This document shows, piece after piece, positions 4,470 to 40,335 of a stretch of 64,000 bases of DNA. Within the stretch, counting starts at the first letter, position 1; every line of letters begins with the position of its first letter. The translations under genes and the position numbers were made by a program. The notes under the pieces are model-generated. The model did no database searches, was not told the origin of the DNA, and saw only the letters and a list, made by a program, of their open reading frames with translations. Origin of the DNA: Candidatus Aenigmatarchaeota archaeon (GTDB lineage: Archaea; Aenigmatarchaeota; Aenigmatarchaeia; QMZP01; JAFGSV01); assembly GCA_016934325.1 (NCBI GenBank), contig JAFGSV010000024.1, positions 5,306 to 69,305 on the forward strand, read 5' to 3'.

Positions 4470-4865
4470 ATGAATATCGAGTCTCATAAGAGAGCGATAA
4501 GGGAAAGCCTTGAAATCATAGAGGAATCGATACGGAAAGGGGTATCGGAGAGGCAGAGGACCATAGGGTTCCATTGCTCGGTCGCGGCTGCTGACATCCT
4601 CGAGCTTTTCTTGCATTCGCGGGGGCTGATAAGCCCGGGCAAGACCATAAAGCATGATTTCTTCGCTTCGAAGAGGAAGCTGAAGGAGAGGCTGCCGGAG
4701 TTCGAACACAGGGAAAGGGCCATCGAACTCCTCACGGAGCTAGAGTCCAAGAGGAGCCTTCTCTGCTACGGCAAACCGCAAACCGAGGGGCTCATCGAAG
4801 AATACCTGTCGACATTCAACAAGATTCGGAAACTTTTTGATGGATTGGGTGCGGATTATGAATAA
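4470..4865 (+). CDS. Small alpha-helical protein, possible HEPN-like partner of the downstream nucleotidyltransferase
   Basis: 131 aa from MNIESHKRAIRE. Its stop overlaps the next gene's ATG (TATGAATAA). It has an R-x4-H string (RTIGFH), but in the N-terminal third rather than the usual HEPN position. Confidence 0.45.
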   Translation: MNIESHKRAIRESLEIIEESIRKGVSERQRTIGFHCSVAAADILELFLHSRGLISPGKTIKHDFFASKRKLKERLPEFEHRERAIELLTELESKRSLLCYGKPQTEGLIEEYLSTFNKIRKLFDGLGADYE

Positions 4866-5484
4866 GTTGCTGGTGGCCTTCGCAGCGGATTTCGTCTCTT
4901 TCCTCATCCAGAAGATCGGCAGCAAACATCTCTCGAATCTCAGAGGTGTCATACTTTTCGGTTCTGTCGCCAGGGGCGAAGCAACGAAAGAAAGCGATGT
5001 CGATATTTTCTTGGACCTGTTTAGAGAAGACGATGCGCTGTTAAAAATCGTCCCGGGAATAATCGAGGAATTCTACTCCGGCGCGATGTTCAAGAAGTAC
5101 TGGAGGCTGATGGGAATAGACAATGAAATAAAATGCGTCCCGGGCAGGCTTGATAAATGGAAGGATCTCCAACCTTCCATAATATCCGAAGGGATCACGC
5201 TTTTCGGGAAATATGCGCAGGCTGCCAAGAACGGGGGGAAATCCTTCGTCATAATAACGTGGGAAAAGGTCAGGCCCGAATCGAAAAGGGTTTTTCTGAG
5301 CAAGAAACTCTTCGGGTATTCCCTGAAAGGCAAGATGTACAAGGGTGTCCTTGATGGTACGGGAACGGTTAAGCTGGGCAGTTCATGCCTGCTCGTTCCT
5401 GTTGAGAATTCAACGCTCGTCATGGAAACATTCAAAAACATGAAAGTATGTTACAAGACATTCCATGTGAGCAGCCTAATCTGA
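4858..5484 (+). CDS. Nucleotidyltransferase-domain protein (MNT / Pol-beta superfamily)
   Basis: It carries the GS-x9-12-D-x-D signature LFGSVARGEATKESDVDIFLDL. The start ATG at 4858 overlaps the upstream stop, which suggests translational coupling. There is an extra C-terminal domain of about 110 aa. Confidence 0.7.
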   Translation: MNKLLVAFAADFVSFLIQKIGSKHLSNLRGVILFGSVARGEATKESDVDIFLDLFREDDALLKIVPGIIEEFYSGAMFKKYWRLMGIDNEIKCVPGRLDKWKDLQPSIISEGITLFGKYAQAAKNGGKSFVIITWEKVRPESKRVFLSKKLFGYSLKGKMYKGVLDGTGTVKLGSSCLLVPVENSTLVMETFKNMKVCYKTFHVSSLI

Positions 5485-6328: not shown

Positions 6329-7369
6329 TCATTGAGCAACAGTAAATTCCCTGACTTTCCCCTGTATCGCCGCTCTCTTGGCCTGCACCAGACCGAACTC
6401 GACGAGCTTGTTACAGTAATCGGAGTACGTCCGGACAGCAATGGGCCTGATTTTTCTGCTGTCGCAGGTTTCGATATATTGCCTCCAGAGTTCTCCGGAA
6501 AGAATCCGGTTGTTTTTCGAGATCAGCTCGTAAAGAAGCCTGTGATGATCGGTCAATTTACTGACCATGTGAGTTTTGTTCAGGTCGTTCGCCGAATTCC
6601 AAGCTTTCATAACATGGGAGTTTGTGATAACGTCCTGTGCATCCTTCTCAGCCAGAAAGGCAGCATTCTTAAGAGTATGGATGGCTATCCGTGCGTCTCC
6701 CGATGCAAGGGCGGCAATTGTGTGAAAAAGACCTTCGTCGCAGGTGTCGGTGGCCAGGGCGTGACGGGCACGCTGCAACAGTATCTCGAACAGTTCGTTC
6801 TGTGTGTACTCCTGAAAGTGTATCCTGGCGGGATTGAGTCTGGATTTGATCCTGTCTTCGAGGTCGAAGTAAGCGTGCTGGGAATTGCAGGCACATATCA
6901 GGCCGGTTTTTGAGAGGCCCGAAAGATTGTACAGGATTGCGTGCCTTTCCTTGGGCGGTGGTTTATCGATTTCATCGAGGACTATTACCAGGCGTTCGCC
7001 GGAAATGTGCCTCTTAAGCCTTTCAAGCTTGAAGGAGGTGCTGAGCTTCTCCGCCCCGAGCATCCTCAGTTTCATGGCGGTTCTCTCAAGCACCGAAAAG
7101 AAGGTCGGATATTCCCAGCAATTCACGTATACGCCCCTGACACCCGCTTCTTCGGTCAGCTTTCGCAGGGCATGTATTGCGGATGCAGTCTTGCCGGCTC
7201 CTGACTTGCCATAGAGCCAGCAGTTAACGGGCTTGTCGCCGTTGGTAATCGGCCGCATACAGTTTATGATTTCATTCACGTGTGATTCCCTTGAATGGAT
7301 GTCGTTCGAGAGGTGACTCTCACTGAGGACGTCAGGGTCTATCAGTATTTCTGTTTTCTTTGATTGCAT
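6329..7369 (-). CDS. cdc6: Orc1/Cdc6 replication initiator (AAA+ ATPase plus winged helix)
   Basis: Walker A is GKSGAGKTASA and Walker B is LVIVLDEIDK. The sensor-2-like motif is SGDARIAIHTLK. The C-terminal region looks like a winged helix (YSDYCNKLVEFGLVQAK). Confidence 0.85.
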   Translation of the reverse strand: MQSKKTEILIDPDVLSESHLSNDIHSRESHVNEIINCMRPITNGDKPVNCWLYGKSGAGKTASAIHALRKLTEEAGVRGVYVNCWEYPTFFSVLERTAMKLRMLGAEKLSTSFKLERLKRHISGERLVIVLDEIDKPPPKERHAILYNLSGLSKTGLICACNSQHAYFDLEDRIKSRLNPARIHFQEYTQNELFEILLQRARHALATDTCDEGLFHTIAALASGDARIAIHTLKNAAFLAEKDAQDVITNSHVMKAWNSANDLNKTHMVSKLTDHHRLLYELISKNNRILSGELWRQYIETCDSRKIRPIAVRTYSDYCNKLVEFGLVQAKRAAIQGKVREFTVAQ

Positions 7370-7424
7370 ACAGTTTTTTCGTGCCGTACCAAGAAATAGT
7401 TTTCGTTTCTACTCGTCTTGCTGT

Positions 7425-7436
7425 TTATGCGGATAA
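7425..7436. repeat. TTATGCGGATAA box, copy 2 (about 56 nt upstream of the orc1/cdc6 start)
   Basis: Exact 12-mer shared with 6309-6320, in the same orientation. It lies in the orc1/cdc6 upstream region next to TTTTCGT direct repeats (about 7373-7410). Confidence 0.3.
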
Positions 7437-7494
7437 GAATGATGTGCTTAAACAAAAAGGAAAAAAGTATAAACTAGAAGTGACAAGTTGCGCT

Positions 7495-7880
7495 TGTTTG
7501 GTGTACCGGCAAGGGTCAAAAAAAGTGCTCTACGTCGAATGCTCCGTACGTCTGCCCAGTGGCATATACTCTCGCGTCGTCATGCACTACCAGATGCTTG
7601 ACGTCCCCTGGAGGGTACATCATTGACCATATAAACAGCAACGTCCTTGACAATCGCCGGGGCAACCTGCGATTATCGACCGTCGCCCAGAATGCATGGA
7701 ACGTGAAGAAGTGAAATCCCCACTTCGGTTACAAGAGCGTCTGCCACAACAAAACAAGGGCCTGTGGAGGGCGGGAATTGTCTATCAGGGTAAAAGAATA
7801 CACTTTAGGCTATTTCAAAGACAAAATCGCCGCCGCAACGACATACGATGTCGCCTCGATAATTCTCCCCTTATTTTTCT
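7495..7880 (+). pseudogene. Decayed HNH-AP2 type endonuclease gene (multiple frameshifts)
   Basis: The homologous pieces are spread over three frames. The HNH part is ...SRVVMHYQMLDVP / GYIIDHINSNVLDNRRGNLRLSTVAQNAWN. The AP2-like part is YKSVCHNKT / GLWRAGIVYQGKRIH / LGYFKDKIAAATTYDVAS. Stops separate the pieces. Confidence 0.65.
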
Positions 7881-8062
7881 GGAATTCCCCTAAAATTTTT
7901 TTGTCAGAAGTCATAATGGCCGATATAAAGAATATTGTGTTTAACATTGTAGACAGCTATATATTCTGGATTTAGAGATAATAGAAAGAGACAGCGGGAT
8001 TCAACCCCGCTAAGGCCGGATTTGTATAAAGACCTATAAAAATCTGGTGCGTCTCTGAAAAT

Positions 8063-8103
8063 AGCCCTGCTGATTCATATGCAATGATTCAGCGGGCTTT
8101 TTT
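8063..8103 (+). terminator. Intrinsic-terminator-like hairpin plus T-run
   Basis: AGCCC(T)GCTGATTCAT-atgca-ATGATTCAGCGGGCT forms about 14 bp with one bulge and one mismatch. TTTTTT follows immediately. It sits at the start of the AT-rich segment. Confidence 0.35.
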
Positions 8104-8240
8104 ATTCTAATTTCTTCATTCTTAGGAGCATTTTAATGCTCTCATTTTTACCTTGCAAGAAATTATACCGCATTGTAGACTTTTGTATAGGGAAAGAATC
8201 TCGATCTAAGTTGTTGAAGGAATATTCAGAGTGAAAGAAT

Positions 8241-9500
8241 ATGAGCGCCACTGTAAAAAAATTTGAAATGCCTAGCATCGAGGATATCGAGAGATATATT
8301 AAATCGGAATTGGGCCGGATAAAAGCGCGTGACTATTCGGCAAATGAAATTTATGAGTGTGTAAGAGTTTACCGTGACCTTGAGATATTCTACCACAACC
8401 TTATTGAAGCTTTTAGTCTTCAAATTCAAACTGCAGATGAGATATCTGAATTTGTTCATTCGGTTAGGTTCCGTACCAAAGATCCATATCACCTTGTATA
8501 TAAATTAGTGAGAAGGTGCTTAGGATTAGATGACAAGAAACCACATAATATTACACCTTTCGATCTCCTTGACCCAGAGGTGGGTATAACTGATTTGGGG
8601 GGAGTGCGAATTCTGCATCTTCGTGCCAATGATTGGGAATATATACACGATTATCTTGTAGCCCCGGGAAATATGCCAAGTTTATCAATTGAGAAAAAGA
8701 TAGCATATGTCAAGCCAGAAAAAAAGTTAGAATATACAAAAGGGAACAGGTTTTACCTTGATGATAAGGATCTAAACAAAAGCGAAATAAAATATGACGA
8801 CAAACAAGAATACACGTCTCTACATTACATTTTTAAATCGAATTATCCTCATCCTTCTGGAACTCTTTATTTTGAGTGTCAAGTTAGGACATTATTTGAA
8901 GAAGGTTGGGGCGAAATCGACCACCAAATGAATTACCCTGACAAAGCAAATTCTATAATACGTGGATATCTTTCATTATTAAATTCTAGCGCACACACTG
9001 CAAACACCATCGCAGCAAAACTCGAAACTCTAGAATATATCCCTTTGTATATTACATGGGAAACCGAACTTCGTACAGAACGAAGCGCAGATAGGATTTA
9101 TTGCATTACACCAGATCTAAAATGGGTGGCCGAAAATCTCGATAAATCTATTAATAACGTTAAAGATTCGGAAGGTACTTTCCACTATTTTATTCTGAGT
9201 GATGACAATGACACAAAACAAAACATTACAAAGGTAGAAAAACGTTTGAAAGCGGAAGGTCTTTGGAAAGTAAAAGTTTGGCTGCATCATCTTTCAGGAG
9301 ACAAATCTGTGGTTCCGGTAATCGCCGATTTACTTCTACTTGAAAATGCTGTTCATCCAATTACGCATAAGCAATGCCCCATATCTGTAGTGGGAGTACC
9401 AGCGCAGAAGGAAGTTAGTCAAGAAGAACATCTGGACATGTTGATTACAGAAGAATCAGCTATTAAACGAATGAAGAAATTCTTCGAGAACCTTTTATGA
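8241..9500 (+). CDS. RelA/SpoT-domain nucleotidyl/pyrophosphotransferase (small-alarmone-synthetase-like) with an uncharacterised C-terminal extension of about 170 aa
   Basis: The synthetase-fold motifs appear in order: KDPYHLVYKL, ITDLGGVRILHL, EYTSLHYIF and ECQVRTLFEEGWGEIDHQMNYP (compare EIQIRT..Q..WAE..H...YK). Its stop overlaps the next start (ATGA). Confidence 0.8.
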   Translation: MSATVKKFEMPSIEDIERYIKSELGRIKARDYSANEIYECVRVYRDLEIFYHNLIEAFSLQIQTADEISEFVHSVRFRTKDPYHLVYKLVRRCLGLDDKKPHNITPFDLLDPEVGITDLGGVRILHLRANDWEYIHDYLVAPGNMPSLSIEKKIAYVKPEKKLEYTKGNRFYLDDKDLNKSEIKYDDKQEYTSLHYIFKSNYPHPSGTLYFECQVRTLFEEGWGEIDHQMNYPDKANSIIRGYLSLLNSSAHTANTIAAKLETLEYIPLYITWETELRTERSADRIYCITPDLKWVAENLDKSINNVKDSEGTFHYFILSDDNDTKQNITKVEKRLKAEGLWKVKVWLHHLSGDKSVVPVIADLLLLENAVHPITHKQCPISVVGVPAQKEVSQEEHLDMLITEESAIKRMKKFFENLL

Positions 9501-10315
9501 CACAAGTGCTTACATGGGAAGACACTTTACTGGATTATTTGCGGACATCCAACGAAGATGAACAAGTAGTCAATTTTGTCAGCAAAACAATCCTTCCCCA
9601 ACTCACCAGTAGATTTGATAAAATCGACTGGCTGGAATTAGGTCCGGGTCCTGGAACTAAAACGCAGCTAATTTTAGAGGATATTATGGGATCGGCACAA
9701 GCTCATCTACGAAGTTTGCGGTTGATCGAACCATCAGTAGCTTGGTGTGACTTCATTCGCCGCAATACTCCAGAGATATTGAACACAATCAAAATATTCG
9801 AGATGAGTTTTAATGACTACCTTTATAGTGAATCAAGACTATATGACAAATGGCAACCGAATTTCGTGACCTGCTTCCATGTTCTCTACGAATATGAGTT
9901 GATTGAAGAATTTCTTCTTTATCTCAAACACCAAGAGCAAACTGGCCACCGCTTGCTCGCATGCATTATCGTCGAATCAGAACACTCTGACTTCTTCAAG
10001 CTTCGCCAAAAACTTATACATTTTGGACAACCTCAGCCATCACCGGCCGCCCTTCAACTTCGCAGTTCGGTTTCGAAGTTAGGTTTGCCAGCACAAGAAT
10101 TCGAAGTGAATAGTCAGTATTTCAGAATTTCGGATATTTATGAAGGATTACAATGGCTTTTAGCGTTTCTCTTCGGATGTGAAAAAGAAGCGTTAACAAA
10201 GATACCTGAAAAAGTTCGCATGGAAGCTAATGAGATAATAAAACAATTCCTTGAGAAAAAACAGAACCAAGTATTAGAAGTACCTGATATAGCTTTTGTT
10301 TTTGCCATCGGATAA
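9497..10315 (+). CDS. Class I SAM-dependent methyltransferase-like protein
   Basis: Motif I-like WLELGPGPGTKT is followed by an acidic loop (LILED). It overlaps the upstream RelA/SpoT gene by 4 nt. Substrate is unknown. Confidence 0.55.
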   Translation: MTQVLTWEDTLLDYLRTSNEDEQVVNFVSKTILPQLTSRFDKIDWLELGPGPGTKTQLILEDIMGSAQAHLRSLRLIEPSVAWCDFIRRNTPEILNTIKIFEMSFNDYLYSESRLYDKWQPNFVTCFHVLYEYELIEEFLLYLKHQEQTGHRLLACIIVESEHSDFFKLRQKLIHFGQPQPSPAALQLRSSVSKLGLPAQEFEVNSQYFRISDIYEGLQWLLAFLFGCEKEALTKIPEKVRMEANEIIKQFLEKKQNQVLEVPDIAFVFAIG

Positions 10316-10318
10316 GTT

Positions 10319-11104
10319 ATGTCACATGTTGTTGTTAATCGACTGAGTCACACTTTTACTTCTCGCAAAGAAAAGCTTGAAGTTTTGGATGAACTATCAT
10401 TTGAAGTATTTCCGACAGAAGTCGTTACCATTCTTGGACCCTCGGGTTGCGGTAAGTCTACTTTGCTCCGATGTTTAGCAGGCTTGCTTGTTCCATCAGA
10501 AGGAACTATCGAAATTGACGGTCAATCTCCAGACATCCTCCGGCAAAAAAAGGAACTGGGTTTTGGTTTTCAGGAGCCATCTCTTATGGATTGGCGAACG
10601 GTCGAAGACAACATCTCGCTTCCAGCAGAATTAGGTATTCAGGATGGAGCCTTATCCGAATTAAAACTACGTATAGATGATATGCTTAATCTCATTCGGA
10701 TGACAAATTTCAGGAGACATTATCCACCACAACTCTCAGCAGGAATGAAACACAGGACTGCGCTAGCGCGTGCTTTAATATTGGAACCAAAAATTCTATT
10801 ACTCGATGAACCATTAGCTGGTCTTGATCTTCTCACAAGGAGAGAGTTAATGGGTCAAATTACTACATTGCTCGAACGACAGAAATGCACGACAGTAATA
10901 GTAACACATAGTGTGGAAGAAGCTGTTTTTTGGGGTGACAGAGTGATTCTCCTTACTCATCGACCCGCCTCAATTGTGCAAATAATTGAGCATCATGGAC
11001 AGCGTCCAAGAAAACTCGCATATGCCGAGTCGATGGAATTCCATCACCTTGTGGATCGATGTTCTGACTTGATTCTCGGATTAAGTAAATCAAACCATGA
11101 ATAA
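10319..11104 (+). CDS. ABC transporter ATP-binding protein (NitT/TauT nitrate/sulfonate/bicarbonate-type family)
   Basis: Walker A is GPSGCGKSTLL, the signature is LSAGMKHRTALARAL, Walker B is ILLLDEPLAGLD and the H-loop is VTHSVEEA. Confidence 0.9.
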   Translation: MSHVVVNRLSHTFTSRKEKLEVLDELSFEVFPTEVVTILGPSGCGKSTLLRCLAGLLVPSEGTIEIDGQSPDILRQKKELGFGFQEPSLMDWRTVEDNISLPAELGIQDGALSELKLRIDDMLNLIRMTNFRRHYPPQLSAGMKHRTALARALILEPKILLLDEPLAGLDLLTRRELMGQITTLLERQKCTTVIVTHSVEEAVFWGDRVILLTHRPASIVQIIEHHGQRPRKLAYAESMEFHHLVDRCSDLILGLSKSNHE

Positions 11105-11840
11105 AAAGAAGATTATTGTACCTGTTGTAGTACTGTTAGCTGTCTTAGCTGCGTGGGAAATGGTTACGCGATTGGCAAACGTGCCTATATATATTCTGCC
11201 GCCACCATCTCATGTAGCCAAAGCTTTCTTTGATCCAAGAACACAATTATTGAAACATACATACGTCACCTTAGGTGAATCGGTATGTGGATTATTGATC
11301 GGTTCGATGATAGGCCTATCTTTAGGAGTTATACTTGCTGAATCTCAGTCGGCACGACTTGCTTTTCTACCATATATCGTTGGTTCCAACGCGGTTCCTG
11401 TTATCGCAATTGCTCCACTAGTTGTCATGTGGTTTGGGTACGGTTTTTTATCAAGGGTATTGGTATCAGCATTCCTCTGTTTCTTTCCGTTGTGTATCAA
11501 CGCTTATCGAGGACTTCAAGCAGCAGATACACACTTCCGGGAACTTTTCGATGTTTATGGTGCTACACGAAGCCAATACCTACTAAAAGCTCGACTGCCT
11601 TACGCAATGCCATTTTTGTTTGCTGGGGGTAAACTAAATGCAACATATGCTGTTATTGGAGCAGTTGTAGCAGAATTCATCGGCACTACTGCTGGATTAG
11701 GTTATGGGATGGTCCATGCTTCATACAATTTGGATACACCTCGTCTTTGGGCTTATCTGGTGGTGTCTATAACAATGGGAATTTCCTTTTATAGTATTGT
11801 GTGGATATTAGAATTTTGGTATAGGAGACGCTATGAATAA
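11097..11840 (+). CDS. ABC transporter permease (TauC/SsuC-like)
   Basis: It is a polytopic membrane protein with an EAA-like loop (GATRSQYLLKARLPYAMPFLFAGGKL). It overlaps the ATPase gene by 8 nt. Confidence 0.85.
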   Translation: MNKKKIIVPVVVLLAVLAAWEMVTRLANVPIYILPPPSHVAKAFFDPRTQLLKHTYVTLGESVCGLLIGSMIGLSLGVILAESQSARLAFLPYIVGSNAVPVIAIAPLVVMWFGYGFLSRVLVSAFLCFFPLCINAYRGLQAADTHFRELFDVYGATRSQYLLKARLPYAMPFLFAGGKLNATYAVIGAVVAEFIGTTAGLGYGMVHASYNLDTPRLWAYLVVSITMGISFYSIVWILEFWYRRRYE

Positions 11841-12900
11841 AGAATCAAATTCAAATTTTGGTCAAAGGCGAATACCTAAGAAGGTAGGGCTTGCCGTAGT
11901 CGTCGTGATAGTTGTAATTGCTTGTGTGTTTGTAATAAGAAATCTTCAGAAACCAGACAGTTCTGGATTGATTCAAGTTCGTTTTCGCTTGCAATGGACA
12001 CCACAAGCTCAATTTGCAGGATACCTTGTGGCAAAGGAGCTTGGTTACTATAAAGACCAAGGGCTAGATGTAGAAATCCGACCTGCCGGTCCTGATTTAA
12101 AGCCGCAGAACACAGTAGCAGCGGGTAGTGACGACCTTGCAGTGGGAGTAGCTAATCTGATTGTTGCTTCTCGATCGAGTGGCGTCCCGCTGAAAATAAT
12201 CGCACAAATTTTCCAAGATTCTGCCAACCGTTATATTCTCAAAAAAGAAAACGCTATTCAATCTTTACATGATTTGCGCGGTAAGAAGGTTGGAATCTGG
12301 ATGGGTGGTGATGAAGCAGAATTCGTTGCTATGCTCAAAACGGCTGGAATGACGTTAAATGACGTAACTGTTGTGCCGCAAGGTTTCAGTGTTGCTCCTT
12401 TTCTCAACGGGGAATATGTGCTTTCAATGGTTACAACCTACAATGAATTGAATCAAATAAGAGATCAAGGCATTACAGATGATAAACTACAGATTATTGC
12501 ACCCGGAGATTATGACGCGGCAATTGTGGGTGATGCGCTGTTCACAAGCGAAAGGTACATTCAAGAAAATCGCGATGTAACGCAAAAATTCCTTAATGCA
12601 TCACTTAAGGGTTGGATATTCTGCGCGGAAAATCCTGAGAAAGCAATCGACATCGTTCTGAGGTTCGAAAAGTCACTTAAACGGGAGGATCAAGTTAAGC
12701 AACTCAAAGAGGTCATGTCGCTTGTTCTCAGCGGACAGGCTAAGAGCAAGGGTATTGGTTACATGGATCGTAACTATTATGTAACAGCGGAACGTGTTCT
12801 TTTTGATTCGGGCCAAATCTCTAAACGGGTAGAACCTTCAGCTGTTTTTGATGATTCACTTTGGCAACAAGTCCCGTTATCAGAAAAATTGGTGAAGTAA
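11833..12900 (+). CDS. ABC substrate-binding protein, NMT1/THI5-like (SsuA/ThiY-type)
   Basis: It has an N-terminal anchor with a Cys (VVIVVIACVF). The NMT1-type core is LQWTPQAQFAGYLVAKELGYYKDQGLDVEIRPAGP. It overlaps the permease gene by 8 nt. Confidence 0.85.
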   Translation: MNKESNSNFGQRRIPKKVGLAVVVVIVVIACVFVIRNLQKPDSSGLIQVRFRLQWTPQAQFAGYLVAKELGYYKDQGLDVEIRPAGPDLKPQNTVAAGSDDLAVGVANLIVASRSSGVPLKIIAQIFQDSANRYILKKENAIQSLHDLRGKKVGIWMGGDEAEFVAMLKTAGMTLNDVTVVPQGFSVAPFLNGEYVLSMVTTYNELNQIRDQGITDDKLQIIAPGDYDAAIVGDALFTSERYIQENRDVTQKFLNASLKGWIFCAENPEKAIDIVLRFEKSLKREDQVKQLKEVMSLVLSGQAKSKGIGYMDRNYYVTAERVLFDSGQISKRVEPSAVFDDSLWQQVPLSEKLVK

Positions 12901-13584
12901 GGAATCCACTTGGAAATCGATAAGAGTCCTATTATCATTATTGACAGAGAATCGTGGCTCTTTGAATTTCCGTTAACTACGCTTATAAATATTCTGAACT
13001 CCAGAAAGGTCTTTTAGTGAATCTCGGACAAACCAGACTACGGCTACTTTGTCGGTCATTGGCCAACTGGATCAGATAGCCCCTTGCGGTCGTACACATT
13101 TTACATACGGACAGGCAACAGCATGAGGTAATACCACGTGAGAAACATCTCTTGGCGTTTTAGACTAAATGATCTAAGGATGTAACTAATGCGACGTAAA
13201 TAGAACACAAGATAGGCAGATAAACCATTTCTTAATTATAGTTGATTTTTCACTTGGTTTTTTCAAGAATAAATGTTATAAAATTATAGAAGGTTCAGTT
13301 TATGTGCGGCATGCGAACCTTTTGGAGTACGGCAAAATCAACGTAACGACTTTGCTACGATGTAGTTATACTTCTTGAATAGAAATTGGGCAGAAATATT
13401 TATAAAGCTTACACTGAAGGAGGTAGGATAAGAGGAGAGGCTATTGAAATGTTCGTAACATCATTGATAATAAGCTGTTATGGAAGTATGAGGCATAGAA
13501 AAATGCTCGGAGTAAAAATAAAAAGATTCAGAAAACGCACAATTAGTAACCTTTTCGTAAGGAATAAAAAATGCTCAAAAAAAT

Positions 13585-14232
13585 ATGTTAAGGGCAAACT
13601 GGGTCCTGGATCCCGGCAAATTTCTCTCCCGGGAAGAAGTAGACAGACTGCTGGAGACAGCGAGAAGAAGGGCAGAGGCGGCCTTGGCCAAAGGGCTCAA
13701 GGTGGCCGTAAGGGATTACTTTGTCGTGGACCTTGCTCTATCCACGGGATTGCGGGTGGCGGAGATTGCCAACTTGAAATGCAAGGACATATTCTTGAAC
13801 GACCGGATGTGTGCGCTTCTGGTCAGGAACGGCAAGGGCGGCAAGAAAAGGCTGGTCCGATTCAACGGATCTTTCGGGCGGCATTACGAAGAGTATGTCC
13901 TGTGGAAGCAAGCCTTCGGCGAACCTGCTGGTCCCGGCGATCCGCTGCTATTGTCCAGCAATACCGGCGGCCATATGACCACTCGGGCGATAGAGAAGGC
14001 GTTCAAGAGGACGGCCGCCAGAGCCAGCCTGCCTTCCCGTTATTCCATCCACTGTCTCAGGCACACCTATGCCTGCGAACTTTACCGGGCCAGCGGCTAC
14101 AACCTGCGTCTGGTCCAGAAGCAGCTCGGGCACGCCCACATCGCGACAACGCAGGTTTACGCGGACGTGGTGGAACCTGACATGCAACGGGCCCTGCAAA
14201 GATTATACGCCCCCCGGCAGGGGCGATTGTGA
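13585..14232 (+). CDS. Short tyrosine recombinase, catalytic domain only (FimB/FimE-like size)
   Basis: 215 aa. The catalytic residues are the Arg in LSTGLRVAEI, H-x-x-R in HCLRHTYA, then LGHAHI and the Tyr in TTQVYADV. It starts directly with KFLSREEVDRLL, so there is no N-terminal core-binding domain. Confidence 0.85.
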   Translation: MLRANWVLDPGKFLSREEVDRLLETARRRAEAALAKGLKVAVRDYFVVDLALSTGLRVAEIANLKCKDIFLNDRMCALLVRNGKGGKKRLVRFNGSFGRHYEEYVLWKQAFGEPAGPGDPLLLSSNTGGHMTTRAIEKAFKRTAARASLPSRYSIHCLRHTYACELYRASGYNLRLVQKQLGHAHIATTQVYADVVEPDMQRALQRLYAPRQGRL

Positions 14233-14845: not shown

Positions 14846-14885
14846 TCGGGAATAACTTTCTTGCTTGTTTTGGAGGGAATTTCTG

Positions 14886-16535
14886 ATGGCTCGCGGTCTG
14901 TTAATCAGCTATCCGGGATACCCTTACACACCCAGCAGCCTGCTGCCGGACAACGGGCTGGCGAATCTGGCCGGGGCACTGATTGAAGCGGGCCACGAGG
15001 TGCAGGTTCTGGATTACGGAACCGTTGACACGATGAGGCGGCTCGTTCCGCAGGGCTTACGGCGAAAGCTGTCTGAAATTTACGACCAGGTCAGCAGGGC
15101 AAGAAATGACTGTATGTCCGGGCTGAGGGGATTGTATTTGCTGTCGAGGCTTCACTTCGCGGACGGGCGGCTTGCCGGGTACCGTGCGCGGGAAGTCATG
15201 CGAATTGCAGAGGAAATAGCACAAGTAATTCAGAAGCGAAAGCCTGACTTCGTGGGATTCAAGCTGTGGAACGGTGACGGATTCAGCGGCCCTGTGATGA
15301 TAGCGGAGTTCCTGAAGAGACGGTTCCCGGAACTGAAGATATTCGCCGGCGGCCCTCACGTGGATTTTTTCCGCGGGCTTATATTTGAAAGAACGAAGGC
15401 GTTCGACGGTCTGGTCTATGGAGAGGGAGAGGAAACCATCGTTCAGATCGCTGATTGCGTTTCCGGCCTATGCAAGCTCGAATTACCGAATCTTATTACG
15501 CCGGACGGCATTGAGAGGCAGATAAAGCGGATCGGGGACCTGGACGGTCTGCCGATGCCCGTCTATGACGAGAACGTCTATCCCTCCATGAAAGGCAACG
15601 GGAAGATAAAGATAGTTGTCCTCGATGAGAGCAGGGGATGCCCCTACGGCTGTGCCTTCTGCGTTCAATCCGTAAAGAGCGGGCATGAGAGAAGGGTAAA
15701 AACGGCTGCTCGCATCGTCGGGGAAATGAAGCGAATTCGCGACCATAACGGAATAAGGTCATTCAGATACGCGGGATCAAGCACACCATCGACATTGATG
15801 AGAGAAGTTGCAATTAAAATCATGGAAGAGGACCTTAAAGTGAACTACTGCTCGTATGGGCACGTCAGGGAATTCTGTTCCGAGGATGCAAAGGCACTGA
15901 AGGAGTCCGGACTCTTCGGGCTTCTTTTCGGGATAGAGTCAGGGAGCCAGGGGGTTCTGGATTTGATGAACAAGCCCACCACAATTGAACAGATCAGAAC
16001 GGCCGTCAAGGCAGCAAAGGTTGCGGGAATATTTGTCGTCGGAAGCGTGATACTGCCTGCTCCTGGGGACGATAAAGACACCATGAACGAAACATTTGAA
16101 CTGCTGTGTGACATCCGGCCCGACTCCGTTTTCATCCAGTTTCCGGGCGTTTACCCGAGAACGCCATGGGTGGAGAATCCGGAGAAATACGGTTTTGACC
16201 TTGACGCGGAGAATTACTGCCGTCAGGTCATGGATTACAAGATCAAGACGCTTTTCCCGCCGTCGTTCTGGTCGCCCCTGCCTTACCGGCTGAACGGAAT
16301 GAGATTCAGGAAGTTTGCGAGGATTACGGAACAATTTGCCCTGAAGCTGGAGAGGAACGGCCTTGTCACGCAGCTCACCGACGACATCGCAATGGTTGGG
16401 TCCGTGCTTGGAATGGAACCGATGGGATTCAAACAGGTTACAGCAAGGGCGATGTGGACTGGGGACTGGGAGAAGATGGCTGAGGTGGTTTCGGAGTTCA
16501 ATGAGAAATCGTCATGCAAGAGTCAGAAAAAATAG
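14886..16535 (+). CDS. B12-binding-domain radical SAM enzyme (class B rSAM)
   Basis: The CX3CX2C cluster motif is GCPYGCAFC. The N-terminal Rossmann-like B12-binding region is LISYPGYPY...HEVQVLDYG...FVGFKLW. The ATG at 14886 is preceded by GGAGGG. Confidence 0.8.
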   Translation: MARGLLISYPGYPYTPSSLLPDNGLANLAGALIEAGHEVQVLDYGTVDTMRRLVPQGLRRKLSEIYDQVSRARNDCMSGLRGLYLLSRLHFADGRLAGYRAREVMRIAEEIAQVIQKRKPDFVGFKLWNGDGFSGPVMIAEFLKRRFPELKIFAGGPHVDFFRGLIFERTKAFDGLVYGEGEETIVQIADCVSGLCKLELPNLITPDGIERQIKRIGDLDGLPMPVYDENVYPSMKGNGKIKIVVLDESRGCPYGCAFCVQSVKSGHERRVKTAARIVGEMKRIRDHNGIRSFRYAGSSTPSTLMREVAIKIMEEDLKVNYCSYGHVREFCSEDAKALKESGLFGLLFGIESGSQGVLDLMNKPTTIEQIRTAVKAAKVAGIFVVGSVILPAPGDDKDTMNETFELLCDIRPDSVFIQFPGVYPRTPWVENPEKYGFDLDAENYCRQVMDYKIKTLFPPSFWSPLPYRLNGMRFRKFARITEQFALKLERNGLVTQLTDDIAMVGSVLGMEPMGFKQVTARAMWTGDWEKMAEVVSEFNEKSSCKSQKK

Positions 16536-17122
16536 TGGTCAGAAAAGCTAACGGCCATGATGAGTTGCAGGCCATCTTCCGGCTCAGGTACGAGAGCTAC
16601 CTGCGTAAGGGATACATACCTTCCAATCAGGATGGTATTATGCTCGATGAATGGGATGAATCGCCTGACACGACTCACTTCGTTGCAATGGAAAGCGGCG
16701 AACTCCTTGGAGCGGTAAGGCTTGTCCTGGACTCGATAAAAGGTTTACCTATGGAGCGGGTGTTTCCGGAAGCAATCAAGAAATTGAGAAAGCAGGGCAG
16801 AAAAGTTGCGGAGGCTTCCACCCTGGTGGTTGCAGAGGGTCCGTCCGGTTCGAGCCGGAAGCTATGGATGAAATTATGCAGGACTCTATGGATGGAGGCG
16901 GAGGCCCGGCATATTGACGACCTTTGCATTGCGGTGACACAAAATCATGTTGGCTTCTATAAAAGGCTTTTATTCGAAAACATGGGAAGGGGCAGGCACT
17001 ACAAGTCCCTGAACGGCATACTCGCTTACCCGCTGCGAGTATGTGTATCTGGTGTCAGAACCAGTCACAAGTCAGACGGAAGCAACCATGATCGATCTCT
17101 GCGCAGGCAGCTCCTGGAGTAG
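16514..17122 (+). CDS. GNAT-fold N-acyl amino acid synthase-like acyltransferase (FeeM / exosortase-associated acyltransferase type)
   Basis: The family-like N-terminus is VVRKANGHDELQAIFRLRYESYLRKGYI...LDEWDESPDTTHFVAMESGELLGAVRLVLDS. It overlaps the rSAM gene by 22 nt. Confidence 0.55.
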   Translation: MQESEKIVVRKANGHDELQAIFRLRYESYLRKGYIPSNQDGIMLDEWDESPDTTHFVAMESGELLGAVRLVLDSIKGLPMERVFPEAIKKLRKQGRKVAEASTLVVAEGPSGSSRKLWMKLCRTLWMEAEARHIDDLCIAVTQNHVGFYKRLLFENMGRGRHYKSLNGILAYPLRVCVSGVRTSHKSDGSNHDRSLRRQLLE

Positions 17123-28574: not shown

Positions 28575-29588
28575 TCACATCAGGTTCCTTATCTCGCCGT
28601 CCGGAGTGAGCACCTTGACGGAGACCCTGTACCTCTCGACCTCCCTCTCGACGAGGACGTCGCCCTCGTATTCCTGTTCAAGGTGAGAGACCTTCTCGAC
28701 CTTGCCCCTGACGATGTGCCTGTCGTCGCCCTCGCCGACCATGCCGTCCAGGCAGCCGCTCGCTAAAAGGAGGCCCAGGTGACCGGTGTGCAGCGGCAGG
28801 GGCGGCCTTCCGACTCCGTTCCTGTTTCGCTGCCCGTGCCCGTTCAGCTTCTCCCATAATGCAGATGAACCGAGTTCGTGCTCTAGCTCCGCTTCGTCAA
28901 TCAGGGTGGATCGGAAGAGTCTGACCTCCGGGGACGACGGTACTTGGTAGACCGGTTGCTGCATGTGCGGGATTTCGGGCAGATCCACGTACGGTATGGA
29001 CCTGAGCATCCCGAACGAACCGTCATCGAGGCAGTTCTGTCCTTTCCTCCTGCCGAACAAGACCACCTGCCTGAAGGCTTCATACTCGTCGTCAGGGAAC
29101 CTGTAAGTGTTGAAATCGTCAAAACGGTATGAGAGTATCTTCGCCACGTCCTCGGTGACCCTCGGCTGCGGGACGATGTAAACGACGATGCCCTGCGGGA
29201 CGAGATACCTGACCGTGCCTTTCAGGAAGACCTTCTCCGTCCTCTCGTGCTCGTGCCCGTGCGCCGGGCTTCCTTTCTGCCAGTCGTAGGGCGGATTCAG
29301 AAAGAGGCACGACACGGAACTGTTGCTCATCCTTGCGTCCTCATAGCCGCATTGAAGCACGTGGTCGAGCTTCTCTCTGGCCTGTTCGGCCCTGTACTCG
29401 TCAAGCTCGATCCCGTAAGTAATGGCTCTGGCACCATCCACCAGATTCCGCACGGCGGTTCCCTCCCCGCAGCACGGGTCCAGAACGTTAGCGTTGTCGT
29501 CCGGAAATTCCAGGAAGGACCTTATCCGGTATACCACCGACAGCGGCGTCGGGTAGTATCCCATCTTGATTCGGGCTTCTGGTCTCAT
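28575..29588 (-). CDS. N6-adenine-type DNA methyltransferase (NPPY class)
   Basis: Motif I is VLDPCCGEGTAV and motif IV is FLNPPYDW. The N-terminus (MGYYPTP) is of the kind seen in methylases carried by mobile elements. Confidence 0.8.
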   Translation of the reverse strand: MRPEARIKMGYYPTPLSVVYRIRSFLEFPDDNANVLDPCCGEGTAVRNLVDGARAITYGIELDEYRAEQAREKLDHVLQCGYEDARMSNSSVSCLFLNPPYDWQKGSPAHGHEHERTEKVFLKGTVRYLVPQGIVVYIVPQPRVTEDVAKILSYRFDDFNTYRFPDDEYEAFRQVVLFGRRKGQNCLDDGSFGMLRSIPYVDLPEIPHMQQPVYQVPSSPEVRLFRSTLIDEAELEHELGSSALWEKLNGHGQRNRNGVGRPPLPLHTGHLGLLLASGCLDGMVGEGDDRHIVRGKVEKVSHLEQEYEGDVLVEREVERYRVSVKVLTPDGEIRNLM

Positions 29589-39961: not shown

Positions 39962-40267
39962 ATGGAAACGCAGGAAACTACCGATTTGGCGAACCGTAAG
40001 ACGAACGCACTGGCCTCAAGAGACCTGGCGAACATCGTGCTATCAGGTGCCCAGTTATGCCAGCCCGCCGAGACTGTGGCAGTCGGCGTATTTTCGCCGG
40101 AGCTGGAAGAAATCGAAAGAAGAAGGGCCGAGAAGTCCGCCCGGCGGGACGCTGCACGAAGGGCGAAGGAGGCCGCCGCCAGGGGGCGGGCGGAAGAGGC
40201 CCGGCGGAGAGAGGAAGCCGCCGAGATCCGGCGCCAACAGAGGATAAGCGAGATAGGTTACGACTGA
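39962..40267 (+). CDS. Small protein with an Arg/Glu/Ala-rich helical C-terminus
   Basis: 101 aa, ending EEIERRRAEKSARRDAARRAKEAAARGRAEEARRREEAAEIRRQQRISEIGYD. Confidence 0.4.
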   Translation: METQETTDLANRKTNALASRDLANIVLSGAQLCQPAETVAVGVFSPELEEIERRRAEKSARRDAARRAKEAAARGRAEEARRREEAAEIRRQQRISEIGYD

Positions 40268-40335
40268 TAGAAGCTGGCGGCGGTGGTCCAGGGAGGGACG
40301 CCGCCGCTGGCGGGCTTACAGAAGGAGAAGTGATT

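What the first reader, a model, noticed from the sequence alone, without database searches (positions are those of the whole stretch)
8241..12900. AT-rich five-gene operon coupling a RelA/SpoT-type enzyme and a methyltransferase to a NitT/TauT-type ABC importer, inside an archaeal element
The 419-aa first gene has the full RelA/SpoT synthetase motif series (ITDLGGVRIL, YTSLHYIF, ECQVRTLFEEGWGEIDHQMNYP). It also has an unassigned C-terminal domain of about 170 aa.

It is chained by overlapping or abutting start and stop codons to four further genes. The junctions are ATGA, a 3-nt gap, an 8-nt overlap and another 8-nt overlap. The four genes are a class I SAM methyltransferase-like protein, an ABC ATPase, a permease and an NMT1/THI5-like binding protein.

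RSH-family enzymes are predominantly bacterial or plastid and only sporadic in archaea. Stand-alone versions are known as alarmone synthetases or as toxSAS / CapRel-type toxins with fused or adjacent regulators. I do not recognise a fixed operonic link to a methyltransferase and a solute importer as a described system.

The whole block (about 7.9-13.6 kb) is visibly more AT-rich than anything around it. It begins after a bacterial-style hairpin-plus-T-run, which suggests recent import.

Speculative alternative: the enzyme pyrophosphorylates or otherwise modifies an imported small molecule. ThiY-type binding proteins bind pyrimidine precursors, and the chromosome encodes thiC at 54653.
Basis: partly seen in the sequence, partly recalled or inferred. 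Interest (0 to 1): 0.7.

Follow-up and report, generated by a model that had tools for sequence, protein, structure and literature searches.

The report
Importer-linked alarmone-synthetase and methyltransferase cassette
A rare, horizontally mobile five-gene cassette, here sitting in an archaeal defence island, hard-wires a nutrient-type ABC importer to a RelA/SpoT-type pyrophosphokinase carrying a new transporter-associated domain and to a histamine-methyltransferase-like enzyme, a combination I did not find described in the literature held here and whose job is unknown.

Summary
Five intact, overlapping or abutting genes lie at 8241-12900.

- g1 is a RelA/SpoT (SAS-type) pyrophosphokinase with every ATP, Mg and G-loop residue conserved, plus a 160-aa C-terminal domain.
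- g2 is a divergent histamine-N-methyltransferase-like SAM enzyme.
- g3-g5 are a NitT/TauT ABC importer with a ThiY/NMT1-like binding protein.

The linkage is not chance. All 14 independent loci that carry a g1 relative (31-63% identity, mostly bacterial) carry g2 and the importer.

New points:
- The C-terminal domain weakly resembles non-catalytic PLD-like folds. It also occurs alone, often behind two membrane helices, directly upstream of the same importer family.
- g1 and the 5' part of g2 are hypervariable (17-59% identity) inside a frame whose importer genes are 81-91% identical.
- The cassette is more AT-rich than its flanks in 11 of 13 loci.
- The "hairpin plus T-run" belongs to a conserved structured leader RNA shared by four cassettes, with no Rfam match.

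Best reading (about 0.4): a solute importer coupled through the C-domain to a gated pyrophosphokinase, with g2 methylating the solute. The rivals are a salvage or activation pathway and a toxSAS-like defence module. I rate it a new variant of a known kind.

The parts
7870..7984 (+). Left edge of the cassette. This conserved upstream block carries a promoter-like TTTAAC/TTGACA region and precedes the structured leader.
   Evidence: blastn gives 74% identity between window 7870-8197 and L008 2352-2697. The alignment is A7.
7985..8112 (+). Candidate structured leader RNA. It has a three-stem element: P1 GAGAC/GUCUC, a P2 hairpin with an invariant AUUCAAC loop, and a P3 of variable length. An intrinsic-terminator hairpin (about 8064-8100) and a U-run follow. 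The 5' strand of P2 (CAGCGGG) repeats the 3' strand of the terminator, so an antiterminator pairing is possible.
   Evidence: It is conserved in window, L008, L089 and L096. RNAalifold predicts 30 pairs, 2 of them with compensatory changes. The MFE is -50.5 kcal/mol with z = -6.8. cmsearch scores 135-153 bits in these four loci only. Rfam has no match at E<=1.
8152..8180 (+). Conserved sigma-70-like promoter motif, TTGCAA-17 nt-TAGACT, between the terminator and g1.
   Evidence: It is read. It is conserved in L008 (TTGCAA..TAAATT), L089 and L096. Function was not tested.
8241..9023 (+). g1 N-terminal domain (residues 1 to about 261): a RelA/SpoT small-alarmone-synthetase-type pyrophosphokinase.
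   Evidence: PF04607 scores 43.7 bits. The family profile hits RelP and RelQ at E 6e-13 to 1e-7. Foldseek hits 5ded, 6ex0 and similar entries at E about 1e-6. The SaRelP residues R78, K80, K88, R91, D107, R112, Y151, E174 and H190 (PMC5794853) align to g1 R78, K80, K88, R91, D118, R123, Y191, E212 and H228. Six of these (R78, K80, K88, D118, Y191, E212 and H228 among them) are invariant across 23 homologs, R123 is nearly invariant, and the R91 position lies in a conserved basic stretch but is not itself listed as invariant.
9024..9500 (+). g1 C-terminal domain (residues about 262-419): a new domain with no Pfam or PDB sequence match. It weakly resembles non-catalytic PLD-like folds and has no HxK motif.
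   Evidence: The AF2 model has pLDDT of about 88-97 over most of 270-419. Foldseek hits MITD1 2ymb, NgoAVII R-protein 4rct and FAM83B 5lzk at E 6e-3 to 7e-2. There are no Pfam or PDB sequence hits. In 1.84e9 representative proteins it is found in about 26 RelA/SpoT fusions and about 44 other small proteins.
9497..10315 (+). g2: a divergent histamine-N-methyltransferase-like class I SAM methyltransferase.
   Evidence: The family profile hits human HNMT 1jqe at E 1.2e-7 over residues 8-245. The AF2 model has pLDDT 84. The top Foldseek hits are HNMT with TM 0.68-0.73 and E 2e-14. Motif I E47-x-G-x-G-x-G53 and the acidic E78 are conserved.
10319..11104 (+). g3: the ABC ATPase, of the NitT/TauT-like type.
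   Evidence: PF00005 scores 113 bits. The best NCBIfam hits are SaoA, NtrCD and TauB-like, all below their equivalog cut-offs.
11097..11840 (+). g4: the type I importer permease.
   Evidence: PF00528 scores 99.6 bits. SaoP, SsuC and TauC hits fall below their cut-offs.
11833..12900 (+). g5: an NMT1/THI5/ThiY-like solute-binding protein with an N-terminal hydrophobic anchor and a lipobox-like VIAC.
   Evidence: PF09084 scores 173.9 bits. The nearest solved structures are 4nmy (E 1.6e-21), the ThiY FAMP-binding protein 3ix1 (3e-18) and THI5. SsuA reaches only 2e-5. The anchor is read from the translation.
12901..13584 (.). AT-rich (GC 0.36) non-coding tail between g5 and the integrase gene. It is not shared with the related cassettes.

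Best explanation
**What it is (shown).** This is a horizontally mobile operon of bacterial origin. It has three parts: (1) a binding-protein-dependent ABC importer of the NitT/TauT type, (2) a SAM-dependent N-methyltransferase of the histamine-methyltransferase type, and (3) a catalytically intact small-alarmone-synthetase-type pyrophosphokinase. The pyrophosphokinase's C-terminal domain belongs to a previously unnamed family that is encoded next to this same importer family even when no enzyme domain is attached.

**How it most likely works (inferred).**
- The ThiY-like lipoprotein captures a small nitrogen heterocycle or amine outside the cell, and the importer brings it in.
- g2 N-methylates that solute, or a close derivative. 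Its pocket keeps the HNMT Glu28 equivalent and is rich in invariant acidic and His residues.
- The C-domain of g1 acts as the coupling module. It either docks on the transporter or binds the imported or methylated ligand.
- This gates the N-terminal domain, which transfers pyrophosphate from ATP to the 3'-OH of a purine nucleotide. The product would be (p)ppGpp-like or (p)ppApp-like, or possibly the tRNA CCA end.
- Uptake of one specific external compound would thereby be converted into a growth-controlling nucleotide signal.

**Regulation (inferred).** In the sub-clade that includes the window, expression is probably set by a structured leader with a terminator/antiterminator choice.
For: **Fixed linkage.** In 14 of 14 independent loci with a g1 relative, g2, the ABC ATPase and the permease are present, and the binding-protein gene too wherever the contig reaches it. 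This holds across 31-63% identity and two gene orders. The g2 family has only 14 members in 5.8e9 proteins. At least seven of the 13 others lie on contigs whose length matches that of a contig carrying a g1 relative, and P0086 was shown directly to sit in a cassette.

**The C-domain is importer-associated in its own right.**
- L095 (reached from the domain side, via P0111) and L093 (Lacihabitans) have a C-domain-only gene overlapping the ABC ATPase gene by 14 nt.
- L092 has binding protein, g2, ATPase and permease without RelA/SpoT, but a C-domain-only gene lies about 1.9 kb downstream.
- So all 3 of 3 binding-protein relatives sampled have a C-domain gene nearby.
- 19 of 44 C-domain-only proteins have 1-2 N-terminal membrane helices, which would place them at the membrane.

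**The enzymes look active.**
- The RelP ATP, Mg, ribose and G-loop residues are matched in g1, and eight of the nine positions are invariant or nearly invariant in the family.
- The SAM motif I and the acidic beta2 residue of g2 are conserved.

**A nucleotide product is plausible.** One variant cassette (L005-L007) adds a LOG-family gene upstream. An HD_4 gene (the Pfam family of the RelA/SpoT-type hydrolase domain) lies convergent just downstream.

**A conserved leader RNA suggests ligand- or factor-dependent control**.
Against: No step of the mechanism has been tested. Specific weaknesses:
- The solute is unknown. NMT1-type binding proteins range from pyrimidine precursors to, by riboswitch association, purines (PMC7373994).
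- The PLD-like fold assignment of the C-domain is weak (E 6e-3 to 7e-2), and no ligand- or partner-binding site is identified.
- The association of C-domain-only genes with importers rests on three loci, two of which were picked through the importer.
- The strong divergence of g1 relative to the importer and the frequent defence-island neighbours fit a conflict role at least as well as nutritional signalling.
- In the archaeal host the bacterial-type signals may not work, so this copy could be silent.
Confidence: 0.4

Rival explanations
1. **toxSAS-like conflict or defence module.** g1 is an autoinhibited toxin built on the plan of fused CapRel: an N-terminal toxSAS plus a C-terminal sensor/antitoxin. 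When triggered it stops growth by pyrophosphorylating tRNA or by making (p)ppApp. g2, whose start overlaps the g1 stop, is a second neutraliser or modifies the trigger. The importer brings in the small-molecule cue.
For: - The architecture of a SAS domain plus a roughly 160-aa C-domain parallels CapRel (PMC9712102).
- In the close sub-clade g1 is 17-59% identical, against 81-91% for the importer genes, and the divergence decays through the 5' part of g2.
- The C-domain is fused to other N-termini: two membrane helices, or an unassigned soluble N-terminal domain (my guess that it resembles a nucleoside 2-deoxyribosyltransferase or TIR fold got no tool support).
- Neighbours are often defence or mobile genes. 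Around the window lie AIPR, Z1, AAA_15, HerA, SNF2 and integrases. L004 is next to DUF2397/DUF2398/SbcC, which look Wadjet-like (my reading), and AAA_15. L094 is next to patatin, NYN, Nmad2 and HNH. L089 is next to EAD7 and a ParB-methylase. L001 is next to a SEFIR-like gene and LOG.
- An HD_4 hydrolase lies beside the L005 cassette.
- The cassette GC is below that of its flanks in 11 of 13 loci.
Against: - There is no PADLOC hit for g1 or g2.
- The profile finds the housekeeping enzymes RelP and RelQ but not CapRel, FaRel2 or Tas1 at E<=1.
- The C-domain is not a pseudo-zinc-finger domain.
- A three-gene importer, which is the best-conserved part of the cassette, has no precedent that I know of in defence systems.
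- L008 sits among housekeeping genes (obg, rpmA, prfA).
- A riboswitch-like leader is more typical of metabolic operons.
- The defence-island enrichment is uncontrolled.
Confidence: 0.25
2. **Salvage or activation pathway.** The imported heterocycle or nucleoside is the substrate of both enzymes. g2 methylates it and g1 pyrophosphorylates it. This would parallel HMP to HMP-PP, thiamine to TPP, or the bacimethrin route of glycosidase, methyltransferase and pyrophosphorylation (the last recalled from memory). The effect would be to trap and activate a cofactor precursor or antimetabolite.
For: - The binding protein is closest to ThiY (FAMP-binding) and THI5.
- The operon logic of importer plus modifying enzymes is classic. 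L092 keeps g2 with the importer without g1.
- A LOG-type nucleotide N-glycosidase accompanies two cassettes.
- There is a riboswitch-like leader.
Against: - Every characterised RelA/SpoT synthetase uses the ribose 3'-OH of a purine nucleotide or of tRNA A76 (PMC9712102). g1 keeps the G-loop tyrosine and the whole nucleotide-type active site.
- C-domain proteins with no enzyme domain sit beside the same importers, which a pure substrate-binding role does not explain.
- Fast divergence of g1 is unusual for a salvage enzyme.
- The host already encodes thiC.
Confidence: 0.2
3. **Ordinary stand-alone alarmone synthetase** that merely lies beside an unrelated transporter. The archaeal copy would be a silent passenger of gene transfer.
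For: - The closest solved relatives are housekeeping RelP and RelQ.
- The promoter-like motif and intrinsic terminator are bacterial in type, in an archaeal host.
- In the collections searched I identified no other copy in an archaeal context.
Against: - The five-gene set is conserved in 14 of 14 loci and across a gene-order change.
- Start and stop codons overlap.
- No full-length g1 is found without its partners.
- All five ORFs in the window are intact.
- The 'silent passenger' part cannot be excluded for this particular genome.
Confidence: 0.03

Closest known systems
Small alarmone synthetases RelQ/RelP (RSH superfamily, PF04607)
   Same: The synthetase fold is the same. The residues that coordinate ATP (R78, K80, K88, R91, R112 in SaRelP), Mg (D107, E174) and ribose (H190), and the G-loop Tyr151, are all matched in g1.
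   Different: A single-sequence search finds no PDB relative. Identity is about 16-18%. g1 has a roughly 70-aa variable N-terminal helix region and an extra 160-aa C-domain. It is always encoded with a methyltransferase and an importer. No full-length member occurs in 185,579 GTDB species genomes.
Fused toxSAS CapRel (for example CapRel-SJ46)
   Same: One polypeptide carries an N-terminal SAS-type pyrophosphokinase and a C-terminal non-catalytic domain of similar size. It is hypervariable and often lies in mobile or defence regions (PMC9712102).
   Different: The C-domain is not a pseudo-zinc-finger domain. It weakly resembles PLD-like folds. There is no sequence-level match to CapRel structures and no PADLOC hit. 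CapRel is a single gene, whereas this is a five-gene operon with an importer.
ThiXYZ / ThiY-type (NMT1) NitT/TauT ABC importers
   Same: The three-component type I importer is the same. The binding protein is closest to ThiY 3ix1 and to 4nmy.
   Different: It falls below every NCBIfam equivalog cut-off (SaoAPX, SsuABC, TauABC, NrtBCD). There are no thiamine genes in the operon and no TPP or HMP-PP riboswitch. NMT1-type proteins also occur in purine contexts (PMC7373994). The ligand is unknown.
Histamine N-methyltransferase (HNMT) family
   Same: The whole-length fold matches (TM about 0.7). The SAM motif I, the acidic beta2 residue and the HNMT Glu28-equivalent (E20 in the invariant SNED) are conserved (HNMT residue numbering is from memory).
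   Different: Identity is 19%. No Pfam methyltransferase model hits. HNMT Gln143 aligns to an invariant His. It is prokaryotic and confined to the operon.
Transporter-coupled signalling and import-and-modify operons (PhoU-PstSCAB; Lsr AI-2 import plus LsrK kinase). These are functional analogies from general knowledge.
   Same: An accessory cytoplasmic protein is encoded with an ABC importer and converts transport or ligand into a cellular signal, or an imported signal is phosphorylated on entry.
   Different: There is no homology. The output enzyme here would be a pyrophosphokinase. The analogy is inferred only.

Membership tests
RSH superfamily, SAS-type synthetase (PF04607) | RelA_SpoT profile match above the curated threshold | tested here: met
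   43.7 bits against a cut-off of 27, residues 78-235. Every listed homolog carries PF04607.
RSH superfamily, SAS-type synthetase (PF04607) | Catalytic and substrate residues: the ATP-coordinating Arg/Lys set, the Mg-binding Asp and Glu, the ribose His and the G-loop Tyr | tested here: met
   g1 R78, K80, K88, R91, D118, R123, Y191, E212 and H228 align to SaRelP R78, K80, K88, R91, D107, R112, Y151, E174 and H190. All but the R91 position are invariant or nearly invariant in 23 homologs.
RSH superfamily, SAS-type synthetase (PF04607) | SAS three-dimensional fold | tested here: met
   Foldseek hits RelQ and RelP at E about 5e-7, with TM 0.55-0.61 on the target. The model is low-confidence over residues 221-264.
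RSH superfamily, SAS-type synthetase (PF04607) | Synthesis of (p)ppGpp or a related nucleotide | not testable with these tools
   This needs an enzyme assay.
Named SAS/toxSAS subfamilies (30 SAS subfamilies of Jimmy et al., bioRxiv 10.1101/575399) | Assignment by subfamily HMM or phylogeny | not tested
   The subfamily HMMs are not available here. Indirect evidence: there is no full-length member in GTDB species representatives, and that paper does not mention a methyltransferase or transporter association.
CapRel-type fused toxSAS | C-terminal pseudo-zinc-finger antitoxin domain homologous to CapRel antitoxins | tested here: not met
   The profile search of the PDB returns no CapRel chain at E<=1. 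The Foldseek hits for the C-domain are PLD-like proteins.
CapRel-type fused toxSAS | Toxicity relieved by the C-domain, and phage-triggered activation | not testable with these tools
   This needs genetics.
Known anti-phage defence systems (PADLOC-DB v2) | Match of g1 or g2 to a defence-system model | tested here: not met
   There is no hit for g1 or g2. Relatives give only weak PDC-S33 hits.
Class I SAM methyltransferase, HNMT-like | Rossmann-type methyltransferase fold with the HNMT-specific N-terminal and insert elements | tested here: met
   The top five Foldseek hits are all HNMT, with TM 0.68-0.73 and E down to 2e-14. hmmsearch gives E 1.2e-7 over 238 residues.
Class I SAM methyltransferase, HNMT-like | SAM-binding motif I (E/D-x-G-x-G-x-G) and an acidic residue at the end of beta2 | tested here: met
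   E47-L-G-P-G-P-G53 and E78 are present. G49, G51 and G53 are invariant, and position 78 is Glu in 14 of 15 family members (Asp in L004).
Class I SAM methyltransferase, HNMT-like | Histamine-binding residues and histamine as substrate | tested here: inconclusive
   HNMT E28 aligns to the invariant E20, but Q143 aligns to the invariant H128 (HNMT numbering from memory). The substrate is unknown.
NitT/TauT-family ABC importer | ABC ATPase, BPD_transp_1 permease and NMT1/SsuA-type binding protein encoded together | tested here: met
ThiXYZ (FAMP/HMP) transporter | Orthology to ThiY, with thiamine-gene or TPP-riboswitch context | tested here: inconclusive
   ThiY 3ix1 is the second-best solved relative at E 3e-18. 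There is no riboswitch and no thiamine genes in any cassette. The binding-site residues could not be compared because the ThiY paper is not held.
Rfam riboswitch or leader families | Covariance-model match of the leader | tested here: not met
   There is no match at E<=1 in 7300-8400 and none at gathering threshold in the window and six loci.

The most novel reading that the evidence does not exclude
The C-terminal domain defines a new family of transporter-coupled small-molecule sensors with interchangeable outputs: a RelA/SpoT toxSAS-type pyrophosphokinase, two-helix membrane modules, or other N-termini. The cassette would be a new kind of conflict or communication system. A dedicated ABC importer takes up an extracellular cue, perhaps one made or edited by the HNMT-like methyltransferase. 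The sensor then switches on a growth-arresting nucleotide pyrophosphokinase. A new leader RNA would add a second layer of control.
Probability: 0.15. Interest if true: 0.85.

Novelty: new variant of a known kind. Interest (0 to 1): 0.66.

Why it matters
RelA/SpoT-type enzymes are known in two roles: stringent-response enzymes regulated by ribosomes or transcription, and toxins held in check by antitoxins or phage sensors. A version hard-wired to a specific solute importer would be a third regulatory logic. It would link one external compound directly to alarmone-type signalling or to growth arrest.

The work also yields three concrete things to test:
- an unnamed domain family tied to NMT1-type ABC importers,
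- a bacterial HNMT-like methyltransferase family with no assigned substrate,
- a conserved structured leader RNA that may be a new riboswitch or sRNA.

The window copy is also a clean example of a bacterial operon, with its bacterial-type regulatory signals, recently placed in an archaeal tRNA-anchored defence island.

Tried and rejected
**Searches that gave nothing useful.**
- A single-sequence PDB search with g1 returned only noise. A family profile was needed.
- Pfam, NCBIfam and PADLOC gave nothing for g2, and PADLOC gave nothing for g1.
- The C-domain has no Pfam or PDB sequence relative.
- Rfam gave no hit on the leader or elsewhere, apart from tRNAs.
- The leader covariance model found only the four closely related loci it was built from, not the more divergent cassettes. 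The exact leader core is absent from viral contigs.
- GTDB species genomes hold only short SAS-like relatives covering residues 72-265, with no cassette.
- Plasmids hold no g2 and only partial g1 matches, for example Bacillus pXO1-type RelA/SpoT genes.
- Viral contigs hold no cassette and no C-domain-only relatives.
The g2-based scan gave 7 loci.
- Three literature searches for the gene combination returned nothing, and a fourth returned one unrelated paper. The ThiY structure paper is not held, so ligand-pocket residues could not be compared.

**Ideas considered and set aside.**
- Wider upstream alignment across all loci shows no conservation outside the close sub-clade.
- The hairpin is not the terminator of an upstream archaeal gene. 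That reading is rejected because the hairpin is conserved together with the cassette in bacterial contigs.
- g5 is not a sulfonate or nitrate binding protein, because ThiY and THI5 score far better than SsuA.
- The N-terminal domain of P0106 and P0109 could not be assigned.

Full report
**1. Observation.**
The five ORFs, their lengths and their junctions are exactly as reported: a 4-nt ATGA overlap, a 3-nt gap, and two 8-nt overlaps.

Pfam confirms the following:
- g1: RelA_SpoT, 43.7 bits against a cut-off of 27, residues 78-235.
- g3: ABC_tran.
- g4: BPD_transp_1.
- g5: NMT1.

The cassette (7870-12900) has GC 0.40 and the tail has 0.36, against 0.51 for the rest of the window.

**2. What each gene is.**

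*g1, N-terminal domain.* A single-sequence search of the PDB finds nothing. A profile built from 23 family members finds the small alarmone synthetases RelP and RelQ at E 6e-13 to 1e-7. An AlphaFold model (pLDDT 84) matches RelQ and RelP by Foldseek at E about 1e-6.

I used the residue roles described for S. aureus RelP (PMC5794853). The mapping onto g1 is:

| Role in SaRelP | SaRelP residue | g1 residue |
|---|---|---|
| ATP coordination | R78, K80, K88, R91 | R78, K80, K88, R91 |
| ATP coordination | R112 | R123 |
| Mg binding | D107 | D118 |
| Mg binding | E174 | E212 |
| Ribose | H190 | H228 |
| G-loop | Y151 | Y191 |

Seven of these positions are invariant in the family and R123 is nearly so; the R91 position sits in a conserved basic stretch. 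g1 is therefore predicted to be an active pyrophosphokinase of the nucleotide-acceptor type.

*g1, C-terminal domain.* Residues about 262-419 form a separate, confidently modelled domain. It has no Pfam or PDB sequence relative. By Foldseek it resembles non-catalytic PLD-like folds, only weakly: MITD1, the NgoAVII R-protein and FAM83B. No HxK motif is conserved.

*g2.* It has no Pfam hit. Its family profile matches human histamine N-methyltransferase over 238 residues at E 1.2e-7. Its model (pLDDT 84) has HNMT as its five best Foldseek hits, with TM about 0.7. SAM motif I and the acidic beta2 residue are conserved.

*g3-g5.* They form a NitT/TauT-type importer. The binding protein is closest to 4nmy, ThiY (the FAMP-binding protein) and THI5, and is far from SsuA. 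All NCBIfam equivalogs fall below their cut-offs. NMT1-type proteins are not restricted to thiamine chemistry: a xanthine/urate riboswitch is named after its association with them (PMC7373994). The solute is therefore open.

**3. The linkage is conserved.**
About 26 full-length relatives of g1 exist in 5.8e9 proteins. The g2 family has 14 members, and at least eight of the 13 others can be placed on g1-bearing contigs, seven by matching contig length and P0086 by direct look-up.

I examined every g1-bearing contig that I could fetch. These were window, L001, L002/L003, L004, L005-7, L008, L089, L090, L091, L094, L096, L097, L098 and L101. All have g1, g2, the ABC ATPase and the permease, as far as the contig reaches. 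In L004 and L090 the binding-protein gene has moved to the front but stays adjacent.

No full-length member occurs in one genome per GTDB species. There, only short SAS-like relatives covering residues 72-265 were found. None occurs in PLSDB plasmids or IMG/VR. The family is rare and is found almost entirely in metagenomes.

**4. The C-domain is the importer-linked element.**
I searched a profile of the C-domain alone against 1.84e9 representative proteins. It returned about 26 RelA/SpoT fusions and about 44 small proteins (220-400 aa) with the domain at their C-terminus and no Pfam domain. Of these, 19 have one or two N-terminal membrane helices.

Three loci carry such C-domain-only genes:
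- **L095**, reached from the domain side through P0111. The gene overlaps an ABC ATPase gene by 14 nt and a permease follows.
- **L093** (Lacihabitans), reached from the binding-protein side. A distant C-domain-only gene overlaps the ATPase gene by 14 nt, with the permease and NMT1 gene downstream.
- **L092**, also reached from the binding-protein side. It has NMT1, a g2 homolog (hhalign probability 99%), the ATPase and the permease. It lacks RelA/SpoT. A C-domain-only gene lies about 1.9 kb downstream (E 5e-36 and 1e-10).

So the deeper association is between the C-domain and this importer family. g1 is that module fused to a SAS domain.

**5. Mobility, mosaicism and context.**
Three bacterial or metagenomic cassettes (L089, L008, L096) are about 81% identical to the window at DNA level from g2 or mid-g2 to the end of g5. 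They are 68-74% identical in the upstream leader. g1 itself is not alignable at DNA level except around the catalytic motif.

Protein identities to the window within this sub-clade, taken over all three relatives L089, L008 and L096, are:

| Segment | Identity to window |
|---|---|
| g1 residues 1-70 | 17-39% |
| g1 core | 39-59% |
| g1 C-domain | 33-52% |
| g2 residues 1-100 | 43-75% |
| g2 remainder | 65-87% |
| g3, g4, g5 | 81-91% |

This pattern means either allele replacement by recombination or fast evolution centred on g1.

Cassette GC is below that of its flanks in 11 of 13 loci. L008 lies among obg, rpmA and prfA, so that host is bacterial.

The window host is archaeal:
- An Orc1/Cdc6 gene lies 0.9 kb upstream.
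- An intron-containing tRNA lies at 52080-52223, next to an integrase.

The whole stretch from about 2.5 to 52 kb is a defence or mobile island. It carries AIPR, Z1, AAA_15, HerA, SNF2, a DUF6094 methylase and a second integrase at 13585.

Several other cassettes also sit beside defence-type genes. L004 is next to DUF2397/DUF2398/SbcC genes, which I read as Wadjet-like, and to AAA_15. L094 is next to patatin, NYN, Nmad2 and HNH. L089 is next to EAD7 and a ParB-methylase. L001 is next to a SEFIR-like gene and LOG. This enrichment is uncontrolled.

One variant, L005-7, adds a LOG gene and a second methyltransferase. An HD_4 hydrolase gene lies convergent just downstream.

**6. The leader.**
Its parts are:
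- a closing stem,
- a hairpin with an invariant AUUCAAC loop,
- a third stem of variable length with two compensatory pairs,
- a terminator hairpin and a U-run.

The MFE is -50.5 kcal/mol with z = -6.8.

The 5' strand of the second stem repeats the 3' strand of the terminator, so an antiterminator alternative exists. I read this directly from the sequence. A conserved TTGCAA-17-TAGACT motif lies between the terminator and g1.

The element is therefore either a riboswitch-like attenuator or a separate small RNA gene. Rfam has no match. With only four sequences this is a candidate, not a demonstrated RNA.

**7. Mechanism.**
The domain assignments, the synteny and the mosaicism are shown. The rest is inferred. 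My best reading, at about 0.4, is this:
- The importer takes up a small N-heterocycle or amine.
- g2 N-methylates it.
- The C-domain couples ligand or transport state to the SAS domain.
- The SAS domain pyrophosphorylates a purine nucleotide.

The main rivals are as follows.
- **A CapRel-like autoinhibited toxSAS acting in conflict (0.25).** It is favoured by the hypervariability, the swappable N-termini and the island context. Against it are the lack of any defence-model or CapRel match and the fact that the conserved importer is the best-kept part of the cassette.
- **A salvage or activation pathway in which g1 acts on the imported compound (0.2).** It is favoured by the ThiY-like binding protein and by operon logic. 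Against it are the fully nucleotide-type active site and the C-domain-only proteins beside the same importers.
- **Chance adjacency.** The synteny survey contradicts it.

**8. Novelty and limits.**
Each component belongs to a known superfamily. I found three things undescribed in the libraries and literature available here: the fusion, the fixed five-gene operon, and the C-domain family with its importer link. I rate the finding a new variant of a known kind.

The limits are:
- There is no biochemical evidence.
- The ligand is unknown.
- The C-domain fold assignment is weak.
- The C-domain-only contexts number three.
- Placement among the published RSH subfamilies was not possible without their HMMs.
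- Expression in the archaeal host is unknown.

Noticed in passing
window 7985-8112 (+); L008 2483-2611; L089 6330-6475; L096 723-865: A conserved structured RNA candidate lies upstream of the cassette. It is a three-stem element plus an intrinsic terminator, with possible antiterminator pairing. It has no Rfam family. It could be a new riboswitch-type leader or an sRNA.
   Followed up: partly
window about 2500-52223: The cassette sits in a roughly 50-kb island anchored at an intron-containing tRNA (52080-52223, minus strand; found by Rfam, missed by ARAGORN) with an adjacent integrase (50842-52017). The island carries AIPR (45963-47984), Z1 (42505-44952), a ThiF-like protein (40057-41721), an AAA_15 ATPase (30143-32848), a DUF6094 methyltransferase (28575-29588), an SNF2/ResIII helicase (25929-28022), HerA/DUF87 (22366-24414), a 1645-aa Sacsin-like protein (17424-22361), Orc1/Cdc6 (6329-7369) and a minimal nucleotidyltransferase (4837-5484).
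   Followed up: partly
window 7535-7900 (+): This is the remnant of an HNH endonuclease gene (HNH_3, E 1.3e-9). It is followed in the same frame, after a TGA at 7712, by an AP2-like stretch (YTLGYFKDKIAAATTYDVAS, not confirmed by Pfam). It ends where homology to the bacterial cassettes begins (about 7870), so it may mark the insertion site.
   Followed up: partly
window 13585-14232 (+) and 12901-13584: A short (215 aa) tyrosine recombinase with host-like GC lies directly after a 680-bp AT-rich non-coding tail of the cassette. No flanking direct repeats of 14 nt or more were found.
   Followed up: partly
window 14865-17122 (+): A B12-binding radical SAM gene (556 aa) is followed by a FeeM-type N-acyl amino acid synthase gene (202 aa). 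Together they could form a small lipid or secondary-metabolite unit next to the integrase.
   Followed up: no
L005/L006/L007 5202-13613: This is a variant cassette. Its order is LOG (SLOG cluster 4), RelA/SpoT with C-domain, an extra Methyltransf_23/25, g2, ATPase, permease and NMT1. A convergent HD_4 hydrolase gene (the Pfam family of the RelA/SpoT-type hydrolase domain) and a 503-aa PFK gene follow. An integrase lies upstream.
   Followed up: partly
L001 2894-5199: A LOG-family gene and a 530-aa protein lie immediately upstream of the cassette. The 530-aa protein has a weak N-terminal SEFIR/TIR-like match (E 5e-4).
   Followed up: partly
L011 5527-9089 (Yersinia alsatica): The closest RelA/SpoT-domain relatives in cultured genomes include a 431-aa protein encoded right after a phage-type integrase and two CI-like repressors. 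That context is typical of prophage or satellite defence cargo. The family is different and lacks the C-domain of g1.
   Followed up: partly
L092 6529-7608: In the RelA/SpoT-less variant, a DAO-family FAD oxidoreductase gene lies 0.4 kb upstream of the NMT1, g2 and ABC genes. DAO enzymes include ThiO and N-methyl-amine oxidases, which may hint at the chemistry of the solute.
   Followed up: no
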